NCBI GenBank assembly: GCA_934162425.1
Contig: CAKPIS010000003.1
Coordinates: 15,774 to 79,773, forward strand
DNA length: 64,000 nucleotides
Reading direction: 5' to 3'
Source: an uncultured Bacilli bacterium
GTDB taxonomy: Bacteria; Bacillota_I; Bacilli_A; RF39; UBA660
This document shows positions 1 through 3,000 of this stretch, one piece after another. Every line of letters starts with the position of its first letter. The first letter of the stretch is position 1. A program made the position numbers.

Positions 1-3000
1 ATTAAGCTTCCATCATCATAAAATTCATAATTTTCAAAAGTTCTATCATGAGTAATATAATTACCATCATCAACCACATCAGAATCAGTAATAAATGTAA
101 TAACATCCAGTGCTTGATTAACAAAACCAATTGAATCTAGATTTTCTGTACCAATTGTAAATGAATAATATTTATAATTTCCTTTTTTATATGGATTGAT
201 TGTTAAATCACCCATTCCAATATTATATTGTTCTTTCTTTAAAAAGTTTACTTTATCTTTATACTCTCCAAAGTTAATTTTTTTTGCTTTATTTGTTACA
301 AAATTATAAATAACATAATCACCATCTAAAAATCCAACTGTATCTATTTCGCTACTGCTTATATAATTAGTAATTAACATACAATCTTCACTAGAACATT
401 TATATGTTCCAACGTTATTATATATAGCACTAGGATTACTTTTCTTTGTTTCTTCATAATTACTTGTAATATATAAGTTTTCTTCTGATGTATCATATTT
501 ATATGTGTATATATCAATTGTTTTAGCAGTACCTTTAGGTTCATACCATCCTTCATTTTCTTTATTTATTACTTCTTTTTGTTTATTATTCTCTTTATTT
601 TTATTATCTTTTTCTTTAATTTTAATAATACCTTTATCATTTAATATATAAACTACCAAACCTATTATAATAATAAATAATATTAATACTACTACTTTAA
701 ATATATTTCTTTTCTTTATAGTTTCATTACTTGGTCTACCTACACTATTTTTAAACATAACCATTATCTTCTCCTTTCAATTTTCTTTTTTTAAATATAA
801 ACAAGTGCTTATATACTACCTGCAAACATTCCTCCTATTCTATAATTTAATTATATAGGATGATTACTTTCTTTGCAAGTTTTTTTATGGCAAAAAAGAG
901 CCTATTATTTAGACTCTTCATATATTAAGTTAAAATCTTCTATAAGTTCACTTTTTATACTATCTTTATCACTTTTTTCTTCATCTATAGTATAAGTTTT
1001 TTCTACAATACCATTTTTAACAAATACTATAATAGGTGCACTTATATTATTTTCCTCTTTTTTTTCTTCCAAATTATCACTATAATCTTCATCTTTAAAA
1101 TCTAGTAATTTAATTAAATCTTTATATTCCTGAGTATTATTTTGCATCATATCTTTAATATTGTAATAAGATATTTCTTCTAATTCTTTTTCTTTTGATA
1201 TACCATCAAGTAAAGATGCAGTTAAATCACAATATTTACAAGTTGGATACGCTAAGAAAATAACACCTGTACCATTTTCTATCTTATCTATTAAATTATC
1301 ATAAGTATAATATTCAAAAACATTATCTTGACTAACTAAAGGATATTCTTTACTAAATTTTAAAGCATCAGTATTTATATCATCATCAACTTTTGTTACT
1401 TCTACAGAACTACATCCAGTAATTAACAAAAAAGTTAGCAATAACAAAACCACTAACTTTTTCATAATTATTCGCCTTTCATTTGAGCAGCTACTTCTTC
1501 AGCAAAGTTATCTTGACGTTTTTCTAGACCTTCACCAACTTCAAATCTAATAACATCAACTAATGATCCACCATTATTGCTTATATATTTTGAAACAGTA
1601 ACACTGTTATCTTTAACAAATTCTTGTTCTTCTAAGCAAACTTCTTTATAGAATTTATTAATTTTACCCATTACTATTTTTTCAGCAATATTAGCTGGTT
1701 TACCTTCTCTAATAACTTCTTCAGTTAAAATTTTCTTTTCATTTTCTAATCTATCAGCTGGAACATCATCCTTTTTAACAAATTCTGGACGCATTGCAGC
1801 AGCATGCATAGATACATCTTTAGCAACAGCTTCAGAAGCACCTTTTAATATAGTTAAAACAGAAATCTTTCCACCCATATGAATATAAGCACCAAAGTTT
1901 TCATCATCTTCTTTAGTTACATTAGCAAATCTTCTAAATGATATTTTTTCTCCAATAGTTGCAGTCATATTAGTAACATAATCATTTAAAGTACCATCTT
2001 CACAAGGAAGTGCTAAAGCTTCTTCATTTGTTTTAGCATCACTATTTAAAATAGTATTAGCTACATCATTAACAAACTTTTCAAACTTTTCGTTTTTAGC
2101 AACAAAGTCTGTTTCACAGTTAATTTCAAGTACAACTGCCTTATTACCATTAGTTACAATAGTAGATAACCCTTCAGCAGCAATTCTTCCAGCTTTTTTA
2201 GCAGCTTTTGCAATACCTTTTTCTCTTAACCATTCAGTAGCTTTCTTTATATCATTACCATTTTCTTCTAAAGCTTTCTTACAATCCATCATTCCAGCTC
2301 CAGAAATATCTCTTAATTCTCTGATTAAACTTGCATTCATCTTTAAATCTCCTCACTAAAATTATTTTCTTAAAGCATTAATTAGTTCATCTTTTTTTAA
2401 CTTTGAATATCCTTCAATATTAGCTTCTTTAGCCATAGCTTTTAATTCAGCAACTGTTTTTTTAGCTAAATCTACACTTTCTTCTTTTACATCAGAAGCT
2501 ATTTCTTTAACTGCTTCCTTAACTGTTTCTTTAACTTCATGAGCTTTTTCTAATGCTTTTGGAGCAACTTCGCTAACTTTCTTTTCTACTACTTTTTTAA
2601 CATCTTTAGCTAACTCTTTAACATCATTTGCAACTTCTTTAGCAGAAGCTTTTACTTTATCTTCTTCAGTTATATAATCTTCAACTGGTTTTCCATAGGC
2701 TTCACATATAGCATTATTTAATACACCAAGTACGATTTTAACAGCACGAATAGCATCATCATTACCTGGAATAACATAATCAACTAAATCTGGATCACAG
2801 TTAGTATCTACGATACCAAATACTGGAATTCCTAACTTATGTGCTTCATTAATTGCGTTAATTTCCTTCTTAGGATCTACGATAATCATAGCTTGTGGAA
2901 TCTTTTTCATTTCTCTTAAACCACAGAAGTATGAATTTAACTTTTCGTATTCCTTTTTAATCATAACAACTTCTTTTTTAGGTAACTTTTCAAAAGTACC

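What the first reader, a model, noticed from the sequence alone, without database searches (positions are those of the whole stretch)
2362..2700. Ribosomal protein S2 with a roughly 100-aa Lys/Glu/Ala/Val-rich C-terminal extension ending in a Rho_N/SAP-like helix-hairpin
S2 normally ends shortly after the conserved core, at about 235-255 aa. Here the core is followed by low-complexity KE/AK/EV heptad-like repeats ([54 protein letters not shown]...). The final 30 aa, [31 protein letters not shown], closely resemble the N-terminal helix-hairpin of the Rho termination factor (Rho_N, LTELKELAKELGIEGYSKLRKQELI...). This is an unusual accretion on a universal ribosomal protein. It may tether something at the mRNA entry side of the 30S subunit.
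Basis: partly seen in the sequence, partly recalled or inferred. Interest (0 to 1): 0.55.

Follow-up and report, generated by a model that had tools for sequence, protein, structure and literature searches.

The report
Ribosomal protein S2 with Rho_N tail
The S2 ribosomal protein of this uncultured low-GC gut bacterium really does carry a floppy charged spacer that ends in a small, conserved Rho-type nucleic-acid-binding motif, and relatives put the same tail on other ribosomal proteins, which suggests a built-in RNA- or DNA-grabbing arm of unknown target.

Summary
rpsB (2362-3369, minus strand, 335 aa) encodes a normal uS2 core (residues 1-228). A 71-residue K/E/V-rich linker follows, then a 36-residue C-terminal module. 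The module passes Pfam's Rho_N threshold (49 bits against 24.9). It is not an artefact. The identical protein was found on 22 contigs, and the ten shown come from ten different samples. All 80 related species-level genomes recovered also carry the tail. The module is conserved (60% mean identity; L309, A313, K325 and K326 invariant). The linker is not (19% identity, 33-103 residues).

[quoted passage not shown] It is not at the mRNA entry, which is formed by S3, S4 and S5.

The tail is also not specific to S2. The same linker plus module sits on bL20 in relatives, on bL21 in another low-GC contig (32% GC) and on bS1 in a contig of 37% GC. My best reading is a tethered, low-specificity nucleic-acid-binding arm, inferred from Rho, RHON1 and SAP domains. 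The ligand is untested. Interest is moderate: a new variant of the known theme of ribosomal-protein extensions.

The parts
2362..3369 (-). rpsB coding sequence (335 aa plus TAA stop at 2362-2364): uS2 core, linker and Rho_N module
   Evidence: ORF. ATG at 3369 preceded by a Shine-Dalgarno sequence. TIGR01011 337.5 bits and Pfam Ribosomal_S2 326 bits. The identical product is called on 22 contigs.
2686..3369 (-). uS2 core, residues 1-228
   Evidence: Pfam PF00318 covers residues 9-223. Mean pairwise identity is 76% across 74 sequences. AlphaFold pLDDT is mostly 80-94. The region aligns to solved S2 chains.
2473..2685 (-). Charged linker, residues 229-299 ([14 protein letters not shown]...SDVKEESV). 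Polyampholyte spacer, net charge -4
   Evidence: Mean pairwise identity is only 19%. Length ranges from 33 to 103 residues among relatives. Composition is K 24%, E 21%, V 11%, D 7.5%, with median net charge 0. pLDDT is below 50 for residues 243-299 although drawn as two helices. It contains 21-nt and 12-nt tandem repeats at 2591-2641 and 2503-2536.
2365..2472 (-). C-terminal Rho_N / helix-extended-loop-helix module, residues 300-335 ([36 protein letters not shown])
   Evidence: Pfam Rho_N at E 5.2e-13, 49.2 bits against GA 24.9. It aligns to Rho 8hsj residues 17-51. Mean pairwise identity is 60%, with L309, A313, K325 and K326 invariant and T305, K314, G320, Y321, S322, E328, L329 and L333 nearly invariant. 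The AlphaFold model of the 45-residue tail has mean pLDDT 82.3, about 90 over the module, and is helix-loop-helix. Foldseek top hits are Rho N-terminal domains at rmsd 0.9-1.1 A over 36 residues. Codon differences from the two closest species are mostly synonymous: 11 against 2 and 13 against 4.
3378..3384 (-). Shine-Dalgarno sequence AAGGAGG, 8 nt upstream of the ATG
   Evidence: Read directly from the sequence. Conserved in 12 aligned upstream regions.
3385..3500 (-). rpsB promoter -10 box (TGtTATAAT, TATAAT at 3492-3497) and structured 5' leader
   Evidence: Sequence. Alignment of 12 relatives shows a conserved -10 box and a 7-bp long-range helix with compensatory changes in 6 of 7 pairs. 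Sub-threshold Rfam match to t44 (RF00127) at 3386-3479, 19.7 bits against GA 44, E 0.078.
1468..2340 (-). [quoted passage not shown]
   Evidence: TIGR00116 330.5 bits. The same synteny is present in all ten contigs shown from this species.

Best explanation
The gene encodes a full-length, expressed-as-written uS2. Its C-terminus has acquired a flexible, charge-balanced spacer of about 70 residues and a 36-residue Rho_N (helix-extended-loop-helix, HeH/SAP superfamily) module.

Shown here:
- The fusion is real.
- It is fixed across an order-level lineage of uncultured, very low-GC gut Bacilli. Their record titles suggest the group called RF39, but that name is from my memory.
- The module is under purifying selection, while the spacer is constrained only in composition and minimum length.
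- Relatives put the same spacer plus module on bL20, another low-GC contig puts it on bL21, and a contig of 37% GC puts it on bS1.

Inferred mechanism: the module is a small, low-specificity nucleic-acid-binding head held on an entropic tether at the ribosome surface. On uS2 the tether starts at the back of the 30S, next to the anti-Shine-Dalgarno chamber and the bS1 docking site. With a spacer of at least 33 residues the head can sweep roughly 50-200 A. That range covers the mRNA exit region and the emerging 5' part of the message.

I propose that it captures or retains RNA (mRNA or nascent transcript) near the ribosome, like a minimal bS1-type arm. The copies on bL20 and bL21 would give the 50S the same stickiness.

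The steps 'binds nucleic acid', 'binds RNA rather than DNA' and 'acts in trans on mRNA' are all inference.
For: Reality and conservation:
- All 120 best homologues carry PF00318 plus PF07498.
- All 80 genome loci carry the module.
- Fifty further metagenomic S2 carriers are all 25-34% GC, with at least 64% core identity to the window.
- The identical protein is on 22 contigs.

Selection pattern: core 76%, linker 19% and module 60% identity. Linker length is 33-103 residues and never shorter. Synonymous changes dominate in the closest species.

Fold: Pfam Rho_N is above threshold. The AlphaFold helix-loop-helix model has pLDDT about 90 over the module. The nearest solved structures are the Rho RNA-binding domain N-terminus. 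Next come SAP domains solved in entries with DNA or RNA: FAN1-DNA, DEK-nucleosome, 3'hExo with the histone mRNA stem-loop, and T4 endonuclease VII.

Precedent for function: in Arabidopsis RHON1, a charged stretch is followed by a C-terminal 40-residue Rho-N motif. That motif alone shifted every RNA tested in gel-shift assays, including 16S and 23S fragments and mRNA UTRs, with differing affinities (PMC3458557).

Position: uS2 lies at the back of the 30S, at the Shine-Dalgarno chamber, and is needed to dock bS1 (PMC10931766). A solved chimera of S2 and S1 exists as one chain (4toi).

General role: the same tail is on bL20 in 15 of the 80 related genome loci, with a 16th copy split by a stop codon. 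It is on bL20 in all 120 best bL20 homologues, on bL21 (L142) and on bS1 (L155). Within one genome (L078) the bL20 and uS2 modules are 97% identical in protein and 96% in DNA, so the modules appear interchangeable.
Against: No binding, expression or structural data exist for any of these proteins.

The conserved residues are simply the family signature of Rho_N, so they say nothing about the ligand. The module's net charge is modest (median +2, range -1 to +5).

The presence of the module on bL20 and bL21 argues against any role tied to the mRNA path. To my knowledge these lie on the 50S solvent surface, far from the mRNA. A non-mRNA target (DNA, rRNA or a protein) fits equally well.

SAP and HeH relatives mostly bind double-stranded DNA.

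I could not determine whether this lineage has bS1 or Rho. I also could not determine whether this particular organism's bL20 carries the tail. No other carrier is present in the 64-kb window.
Confidence: 0.4

Rival explanations
1. DNA or nucleoid tether. The HeH/SAP-type head binds double-stranded DNA and keeps ribosomes, through both subunits, close to the chromosome. In a small, reduced cell this would favour co-transcriptional translation.
For: SAP, HeH and LEM relatives are mostly DNA binders. The structural neighbours include FAN1-DNA, DEK-nucleosome and T4 endonuclease VII entries. The SAP and HeH models give sub-threshold hits to the module. They come closer to or near their thresholds in the bL20 copies (Pfam column). 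Tails on both 30S and 50S proteins fit a whole-ribosome anchoring role better than an mRNA-path role.
Against: The best-scoring family is Rho_N, not SAP. The only isolated Rho-N motif tested experimentally bound RNA. No genomic context here links the tail to DNA functions.
Confidence: 0.15
2. A cis-acting rRNA clamp or assembly aid. The module binds the organism's own rRNA, either nascent during assembly or on the mature surface. This would stabilise late or peripheral proteins, as many ribosomal-protein extensions do.
For: The RHON1 Rho-N motif bound 16S and 23S fragments, and its loss impaired rRNA processing. Ribosomal-protein extensions are common across bacteria, and some become ordered on the ribosome (PMC9534751). 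bL20 is, to my knowledge, an early 50S assembly protein.
Against: Linker length varies threefold (33-103 residues) with no sequence conservation, and pLDDT is below 50. That fits a free tether better than a defined docking path. The four hosts bind at very different sites and assembly stages. Near-identical modules on bL20 and uS2 in one genome would have to recognise different rRNA sites.
Confidence: 0.2
3. A protein-protein adaptor. The Rho_N head recruits a partner to the ribosome, such as RNA polymerase, NusA or NusG, an RNase, or another ribosome for hibernation or dimerisation.
For: RHON1 forms a complex with RNase E and dimerises. Rho N-terminal domains appear in solved Rho entries with NusG and in a pre-termination complex, 6duq and 6xav.
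Against: No evidence here links the RHON1-RNase E contact to its Rho-N motif. No conserved partner gene lies next to rpsB across the loci; the neighbours differ between subclades. Nothing here tests protein binding.
Confidence: 0.1
4. Artefact or neutral junk. The extension arises from a frameshift, from read-through of a lost stop codon, or from a functionless low-complexity accretion.
For: The linker itself looks like slippage-prone low-complexity sequence, with 12-nt and 21-nt repeats. Its length and sequence drift freely.
Against: The identical protein is on 22 contigs. The module is present in 80 of 80 related genomes. It shows 60% identity with invariant positions against 19% in the linker. 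Synonymous substitutions are in excess. The Pfam match is above threshold.
Confidence: 0.03

Closest known systems
N-terminal helix bundle of transcription termination factor Rho (Pfam Rho_N, PF07498)
   Same: The same sequence family: 49 bits against GA 24.9, and a direct alignment to Rho 8hsj residues 17-51. The same helix-extended-loop-helix fold, at about 1 A rmsd over 36 residues to 1a8v, 2a8v and 5jji.
   Different: Only model positions 1-36 of 43 are present. There is no Rho OB-fold RNA-binding domain and no RecA-type ATPase (no Pfam hit for either). The TIGR00767 Rho model scores 18.7 bits against a cut-off of 509. The module is C-terminal, on a ribosomal protein, and follows a long spacer. 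It is not a Rho homologue in any functional sense.
RHON1 of Arabidopsis chloroplasts (PMC3458557)
   Same: The same layout at the C-terminus: a highly charged stretch followed by a terminal ~40-residue Rho-N motif. That motif alone bound rRNA and mRNA fragments in gel shifts. This is the best functional precedent.
   Different: RHON1 is a free protein that partners RNase E. It is eukaryotic and plastid-targeted, and its charged stretch is acidic rather than mixed K/E. It is not a ribosomal protein.
NCBIfam NF011109 (PRK14537) '50S ribosomal protein L20/unknown domain fusion protein'
   Same: The S2 tail aligns to model positions 131-225 of 232, and the module alone to positions 188-225 at E 4.3e-07. 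The 'unknown domain' of that L20 fusion is therefore the same linker plus Rho_N module. bL20 of relatives scores 179.5 bits against its cut-off of 187.
   Different: The host protein differs (bL20, large subunit). That database model names no domain or function. I found no NCBIfam model for the S2 plus Rho_N form.
Other S2 C-terminal fusion variants in NCBIfam: NF051451 'S2, sunset domain variant' and NF008966 (PRK12311)
   Same: These also describe uS2 with a long C-terminal addition. The window protein aligns through the charged linker region of both, at positions 1-309 of 382 and 4-289 of 334. A 'sunset' variant also exists for L20 (NF051450), so the same pair of host proteins is involved.
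   Different: The scores are far below the cut-offs: 291 against 710 and 267 against 526. The terminal domains of those models are not matched, so their appended domain is a different one.
Lineage-specific extensions of bacterial ribosomal proteins (for example Mycoplasma pneumoniae, PMC9534751)
   Same: Terminal extensions of more than 20 residues occur on 11 of 52 ribosomal proteins there. They are mostly predicted to be disordered, are common across bacteria, and have largely unknown functions.
   Different: Here the extension ends in a folded, conserved, recognisable domain, and the same domain is shared between several ribosomal proteins.
bS1, the flexible mRNA-catching protein docked on uS2
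   Same: bS1 is anchored at uS2 and has a flexible RNA-binding part that reaches into solution (PMC10931766). A bS1 with the same Rho_N module at its C-terminus exists in a contig of 37% GC (L155).
   Different: The S2 tail contains no S1/OB domains. It has a single 36-residue head rather than four RNA-binding domains. The functional analogy is inference only.

Membership tests
Bacterial ribosomal protein uS2 (TIGR01011 / PF00318) | Full-length match to the family model above the curated cut-off | tested here: met
   TIGR01011 337.5 bits against 76.3. PF00318 326.2 bits against 26.1, covering model positions 1-215 of 216.
Bacterial ribosomal protein uS2 (TIGR01011 / PF00318) | rpsB-tsf operon arrangement | tested here: met
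   tsf (TIGR00116, 330.5 bits) starts 21 nt after the rpsB stop. The same arrangement is present in related contigs.
Rho_N domain (PF07498) | Profile score at or above the gathering score | tested here: met
   44.3 bits in the full protein and 49.2 bits for the isolated 39-residue peptide, against GA 24.9. Model positions 1-36 of 43 are covered.
Rho_N domain (PF07498) | Helix-extended-loop-helix fold | tested here: met
   AlphaFold model with pLDDT about 90 over the module: helices at 16-25 and 36-44 of the 45-residue tail with a loop between them. The top Foldseek hits are Rho N-termini with TM-score (query-normalised) 0.72 and rmsd about 1.0 A over 36 residues. Foldseek E-values (1.7 and above) are not significant for so short a query.
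Rho_N domain (PF07498) | Nucleic-acid binding | not testable with these tools
   Only precedent is available: the RHON1 Rho-N motif bound RNA in gel shifts.
Transcription termination factor Rho (TIGR00767) | OB-fold primary RNA-binding domain plus RecA-type ATPase, with a full-length model score above the cut-off | tested here: not met
   18.7 bits against 509.45, matching model positions 5-39 only. There are no Rho_RNA_bind or ATPase Pfam hits.
SAP domain (PF02037) and HeH/LEM domain (PF12949) | Profile score at or above the gathering score | tested here: not met
   SAP 21.0 bits against 23.9 and HeH 17.6 bits against 28.9 for the isolated module. The relationship is at superfamily level only.
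NCBIfam NF051451, S2 sunset domain variant | Whole-protein score above the cut-off, including the terminal domain | tested here: not met
   291.2 bits against 710. The alignment stops at model position 309 of 382.
NCBIfam NF008966 (PRK12311), S2 with additional C-terminal domain | Whole-protein score above the cut-off | tested here: not met
   266.7 bits against 526. Model positions 4-289 of 334 are aligned.
NCBIfam NF011109 (PRK14537), L20/unknown domain fusion | bL20 core plus the tail, with a score above the cut-off | tested here: not met
   The window protein has no L20 core. Only its tail matches, at model positions 131-225, 26.2 bits against 187. bL20 of the relative L078 scores 179.5 bits against 187.

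The most novel reading that the evidence does not exclude
The Rho_N heads on uS2, bL20, bL21 and bS1 form a lineage-specific system built into the ribosome. This system physically ties both subunits to nascent transcripts, to the transcription machinery or to the nucleoid. In these reduced genomes it would replace free coupling or mRNA-recruitment factors such as bS1, NusG-type bridging or Rho-dependent surveillance. All four hosts are also known or suspected autogenous repressors that bind their own mRNA leaders (my recollection). The tail could therefore instead be part of a shared feedback mechanism for ribosomal-protein synthesis.
Probability: 0.1. Interest if true: 0.7.

Novelty: new variant of a known kind. 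Interest (0 to 1): 0.42.

Why it matters
Ribosomal-protein extensions are common, but almost none has an assigned function. This one ends in a recognisable folded nucleic-acid-binding motif. It is fixed across a large, abundant and almost uncultured group of gut bacteria. The same module is shared, and apparently exchanged, between proteins of both ribosomal subunits. That makes it a tractable case. A 36-residue peptide can be tested directly for RNA or DNA binding. The tail can be grafted onto or removed from S2 in a model Firmicute. If the arm recruits mRNA or links ribosomes to transcription, it would show how reduced genomes build such functions into the ribosome. If it does nothing measurable, it is one more decorated ribosomal protein.

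Tried and rejected
1. Frameshift or artefact: rejected.

2. Census of proteins carrying the most similar modules in the 1.84-billion representative library, followed by Pfam on the top 150. All 150 carry Rho_N, but the list is dominated by proteins with 2-8 tandem copies. Co-occurring domains are varied and rare, for example protein kinase, HMG-box, T5orf172 and an MCM2 winged helix. Only one S2 fragment appeared. This shows the module is promiscuous but says little about ribosomal proteins.

A 7-sequence alignment worked.

4. Foldseek of the 45-residue tail against the PDB. The hits are sensible, but all E-values are above 1 because the query is short. I use them only as supporting evidence.

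5. Literature. I found no paper on S2 or any ribosomal protein carrying Rho_N. Nothing is published on the 'sunset domain'. The supplement of PMC9534751 has no S2 entry under the terms I tried.

6. Other carriers in the window: none was found with a custom profile of the tail across all six reading frames. No rho or rpsA gene is in the window. The only S1-domain protein is a Tex homologue at 53368-55533.

7. Rfam at gathering thresholds finds only tRNAs in the window and in 20 related loci.

8. I could not link a bL20 sequence to this exact organism. I also could not survey a whole related genome for rho, rpsA or further carriers.

9. My first within-genome module comparison used an anchor that misaligns the bL20 variant with a one-residue-shorter loop. 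The low identities of 0.2-0.29 are therefore artefacts. Only the high values (L078, L040, L080) are used.

10. One codon-comparison script had an anchoring bug and was rerun.
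Full report
**The gene.** The finding lies on the minus strand. The ORF listing gives an ORF at 2362..3435 starting at a GTG. The sequence upstream shows AAGGAGG at 3378-3384, 8 nt before the ATG at 3369. From that ATG the protein begins [19 protein letters not shown], as S2 proteins do. I therefore take rpsB as 2362-3369, 335 aa. tsf (EF-Ts, TIGR00116, 330.5 bits) follows 21 nt downstream at 1468-2340. An HD-domain gene and priA lie upstream. The window is about 25% GC.

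Pfam places Ribosomal_S2 on residues 9-223 (326 bits). TIGR01011 rpsB_bact scores 337.5 bits against a cut-off of 76.3. Residues 229-335 are additional. Bacterial S2 chains in the PDB list are 217-294 residues long. None aligns beyond residue 255 of this protein. No solved S2 chain matches the tail.

The last 36 residues match Pfam Rho_N at E 1.7e-11 in context. As an isolated 39-residue peptide they score E 5.2e-13 and 49.2 bits, against a gathering score of 24.9. SAP (21.0 against 23.9 bits) and HeH (17.6 against 28.9 bits) fall just short. phmmer aligns tail residues 67-101 to residues 17-51 of a solved Rho, 8hsj.

An AlphaFold model of the whole protein has a confident core. pLDDT is below 50 for residues 243-299 and about 80 for the terminal module. 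A separate model of the last 45 residues has mean pLDDT 82.3, about 90 over the module, and forms helix-loop-helix.

Its closest solved structures are Rho N-terminal domains, at rmsd 0.9-1.1 A over 36 residues. SAP domains from entries that contain nucleic acid come next: FAN1, DEK-nucleosome, 3'hExo and T4 endonuclease VII. The Foldseek E-values are not significant for so short a query.

The 'heptad-like' impression comes from two short tandem duplications. One is a 21-nt unit ([14 protein letters not shown]) at 2591-2641. The other is a 12-nt unit ([12 protein letters not shown]) at 2503-2536.

**It is not an artefact.**
- The exact 335-aa product is called on 22 contigs. The ten shown come from ten different samples and have the same neighbours.
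- All 120 best database homologues carry both PF00318 and PF07498, with lengths of 305-524 residues.
- A scan of one genome per species found 572 related stretches. The 80 best are all uncultured gut 'Bacilli', 'Tenericutes' or 'Mollicutes' MAGs. They include Clostridium sp. CAG:1193, Acholeplasma sp. CAG:878, Candidatus Coprosoma and Candidatus Fimihabitans.
- I recognise these record names as the group usually called RF39. That name is my recollection and was not tested.
- A profile built from the tails finds the module on the S2 of all 80 loci.
- Fifty more S2 carriers from metagenomes are all 25-34% GC, with at least 64% core identity to the window.
- In everything I sampled, the S2 plus Rho_N form belongs to one coherent low-GC lineage.

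**Selection pattern.** I compared the window protein with 73 species-level homologues.

| Region | Mean pairwise identity | Length |
|---|---|---|
| uS2 core | 76% | 228-231 residues |
| Linker | 19% | 33-103 residues |
| Rho_N module | 60% | 35-36 residues |

The linker composition is K 24%, E 21%, V 11% and D 7.5%, with median net charge 0. In the module, L309, A313, K325 and K326 are invariant. T305, K314, G320, Y321, S322, E328, L329 and L333 are nearly invariant.

Against the two closest species, codon differences in the module are mostly synonymous: 11 against 2 and 13 against 4. So the head is maintained by selection. The spacer is constrained only in character and in never being short.

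**The tail is not specific to S2.** This was the most informative result.
- In 16 of the 80 genome loci, rplT lies immediately upstream of rpsB. In 15 of these, bL20 carries its own K/E-rich linker and C-terminal Rho_N module. In the 16th (L079) the module is split off by a stop codon.
- Pfam confirms the architecture for L078: Ribosomal_L20 166 bits and Rho_N 38 bits.
- All 120 best homologues of that bL20 have PF00453 plus PF07498.
- This explains why the S2 tail hits NCBIfam NF011109, '50S ribosomal protein L20/unknown domain fusion protein', at positions 131-225. bL20 of L078 scores 179.5 bits against that model's cut-off of 187.
- In L078 the bL20 and uS2 modules are 97% identical in protein and 96% in DNA over 108 nt. 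In L040 they are 86% identical in protein. In L080 the S2 module has taken on the bL20-type loop. The two tails therefore appear to exchange sequence within a genome.
- A metagenome scan with the module returned 50 uS2 and 27 bL20 carriers. It also returned one bL21 with linker and Rho_N (L142: L21p 117 bits, Rho_N 38 bits). One bS1 with six S1 domains and a terminal Rho_N also appeared (L155: S1 277 bits, Rho_N 37 bits, locus 37% GC). A further Rho_N-bearing fragment of unknown host came from a 61%-GC contig (L140).
- NCBIfam also holds 'sunset domain variant' models for both S2 and L20 (NF051451, NF051450). Neither is reached here. In some other lineage the same two proteins evidently carry a different add-on.
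- The module is promiscuous more widely. The 150 best hits in a 1.84-billion-protein library all carry Rho_N, often in tandem arrays and with very varied partners.
- Within the 64-kb window only S2 carries the module.

**Where the tail sits.** uS2 lies on the back of the 30S at the head-body hinge. It has been linked to the Shine-Dalgarno helix chamber. It is required to dock bS1, whose flexible part reaches out for mRNA (PMC10931766). A solved chimera joins S2 and S1 in one chain (4toi). From memory, S1 was fused to the S2 C-terminus in that construct, which would place that end next to the S1 site. The mRNA entry channel is formed by S3, S4 and S5 (bioRxiv 10.1101/2020.02.28.970111). If the tail relates to mRNA at all, it does so on the exit or platform side.

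**Mechanism.** What is shown is the anatomy, the conservation and the recurrence on several ribosomal proteins. What the head binds is inferred.

The best precedent is RHON1. There, a charged stretch is followed by a terminal 40-residue Rho-N motif. That motif alone shifted all RNAs tested, including 16S and 23S fragments and mRNA UTRs, with differing affinities (PMC3458557).

On that basis I favour a tethered, low-specificity RNA-binding arm (confidence about 0.4). On uS2 it would hold the 5' part of an mRNA or a nascent transcript near the platform, as a minimal S1-like device.

The occurrence on bS1 fits this reading. The occurrence on bL20 and bL21 does not fit an mRNA-path role. It keeps three rivals alive:
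- a DNA or nucleoid tether (0.15)
- binding of the ribosome's own rRNA during or after assembly (0.2)
- recruitment of a protein partner (0.1)

A functionless accretion is excluded for the module.

All four hosts are, to my knowledge, known or suspected autogenous regulators that bind their own mRNA leaders. I note this as a lead only. It is post hoc and untested.

**Known or new.** Extensions of bacterial ribosomal proteins are common and mostly unexplained (PMC9534751). The domain combination is visible in precomputed Pfam annotations. The L20 form has a provisional NCBIfam model that calls the domain 'unknown'. I found no paper describing Rho_N on S2 or on any ribosomal protein, although the searchable library is incomplete.

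I rate this a new variant of a known kind. It is a ribosomal-protein extension that ends in an identifiable, conserved, shared nucleic-acid-binding head. Interest is moderate at 0.42. The anatomy is clear and easily testable. However, no function has been demonstrated, and a specialist would not be greatly surprised.

**Side observation.** The rpsB 5' leader (about 3385-3485) has a conserved extended -10 box. It also has a 7-bp long-range helix with compensatory changes in 6 of 7 pairs across 12 species. It gives a sub-threshold match to Rfam t44, 19.7 bits against GA 44. From memory, t44 is the RNA upstream of rpsB in enterobacteria. This suggests a conserved S2 regulatory leader.

Noticed in passing
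L059 2563-3159, L078 2551-3129, L069 2683-3258, L073 2485-3117 and 11 other genome loci (rplT just upstream of rpsB): bL20 carries the same K/E-rich linker plus C-terminal Rho_N module as uS2. All 120 best bL20 homologues have PF00453 plus PF07498. A bL20 sub-variant has a loop one residue shorter (KKKINVTGMKKAEII).
   Followed up: yes
L078 3022-3129 (bL20 module) against L078 4035-4142 (uS2 module); also L040 and L080: Within one genome, the modules of the adjacent rplT and rpsB genes are 97% identical in protein and 96% in DNA. This suggests gene conversion or recent copying between the two tails.
   Followed up: partly
L155 440-2608 (metagenome contig, 37% GC) and L142 1-519 (32% GC): A bS1 with six S1 domains and a bL21 each end in a Rho_N module (37 and 38 bits). 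The module therefore recurs on at least four ribosomal proteins. The organisms were not identified.
   Followed up: partly
window 3385-3500 (-): The rpsB leader has a conserved extended -10 box (TGtTATAAT). It also has a 7-bp long-range helix with compensatory changes in 6 of 7 pairs across 12 species. It gives a sub-threshold Rfam t44 (RF00127) match at 3386-3479 (19.7 bits against GA 44). This is a candidate S2 autoregulatory leader.
   Followed up: partly
NCBIfam models NF051451 and NF051450: NCBI curates 'sunset domain variant' models for both S2 and L20. In some other lineage the same pair of ribosomal proteins carries a different C-terminal add-on. I found no publication on this domain.
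   Followed up: no
window 3370-3435 (-): The mechanical ORF starts at a GTG 22 codons upstream of the real ATG. Several database entries (for example P0001 and P0122, 357 aa) use this longer, probably wrong, start.
   Followed up: yes
proteins P0149-P0298: The modules most similar to this one in a 1.84-billion-protein library sit mostly in proteins with 2-8 tandem Rho_N copies. A few also carry domains such as protein kinase, HMG-box, T5orf172 or an MCM2 winged helix. To me these look like eukaryotic or large-virus proteins.
   Followed up: partly
window 33016-35844 (-): A 942-aa protein with nine DUF285 ('Mycoplasma protein of unknown function') repeats (504 bits) plus leucine-rich repeats. 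It is probably a surface protein.
   Followed up: no
window 6451-8388, 19327-20949, 21066-22988 (all -): Three large ORFs (645, 540 and 640 aa) have no Pfam or NCBIfam match at the thresholds used. The first is conserved in synteny next to priA in contigs of the same species.
   Followed up: no
window 1-64000: Almost every gene is on the minus strand, and GC skew is negative throughout (cumulative -4.2). This is consistent with one replichore in which genes are co-oriented with replication.
   Followed up: no
P0299 (293 aa) and P0303 (239 aa): Two bL20 database entries contain an internal duplication of part of the L20 core before the linker and module. These are probably assembly artefacts.
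   Followed up: no
L169 6162-7769 against L161 12606-15316: Between strains of the same species, the segment downstream of tsf differs. One contig has a serpin gene. Others have a 570-aa unknown protein and an N_methyl (prepilin-type) protein.
   Followed up: no
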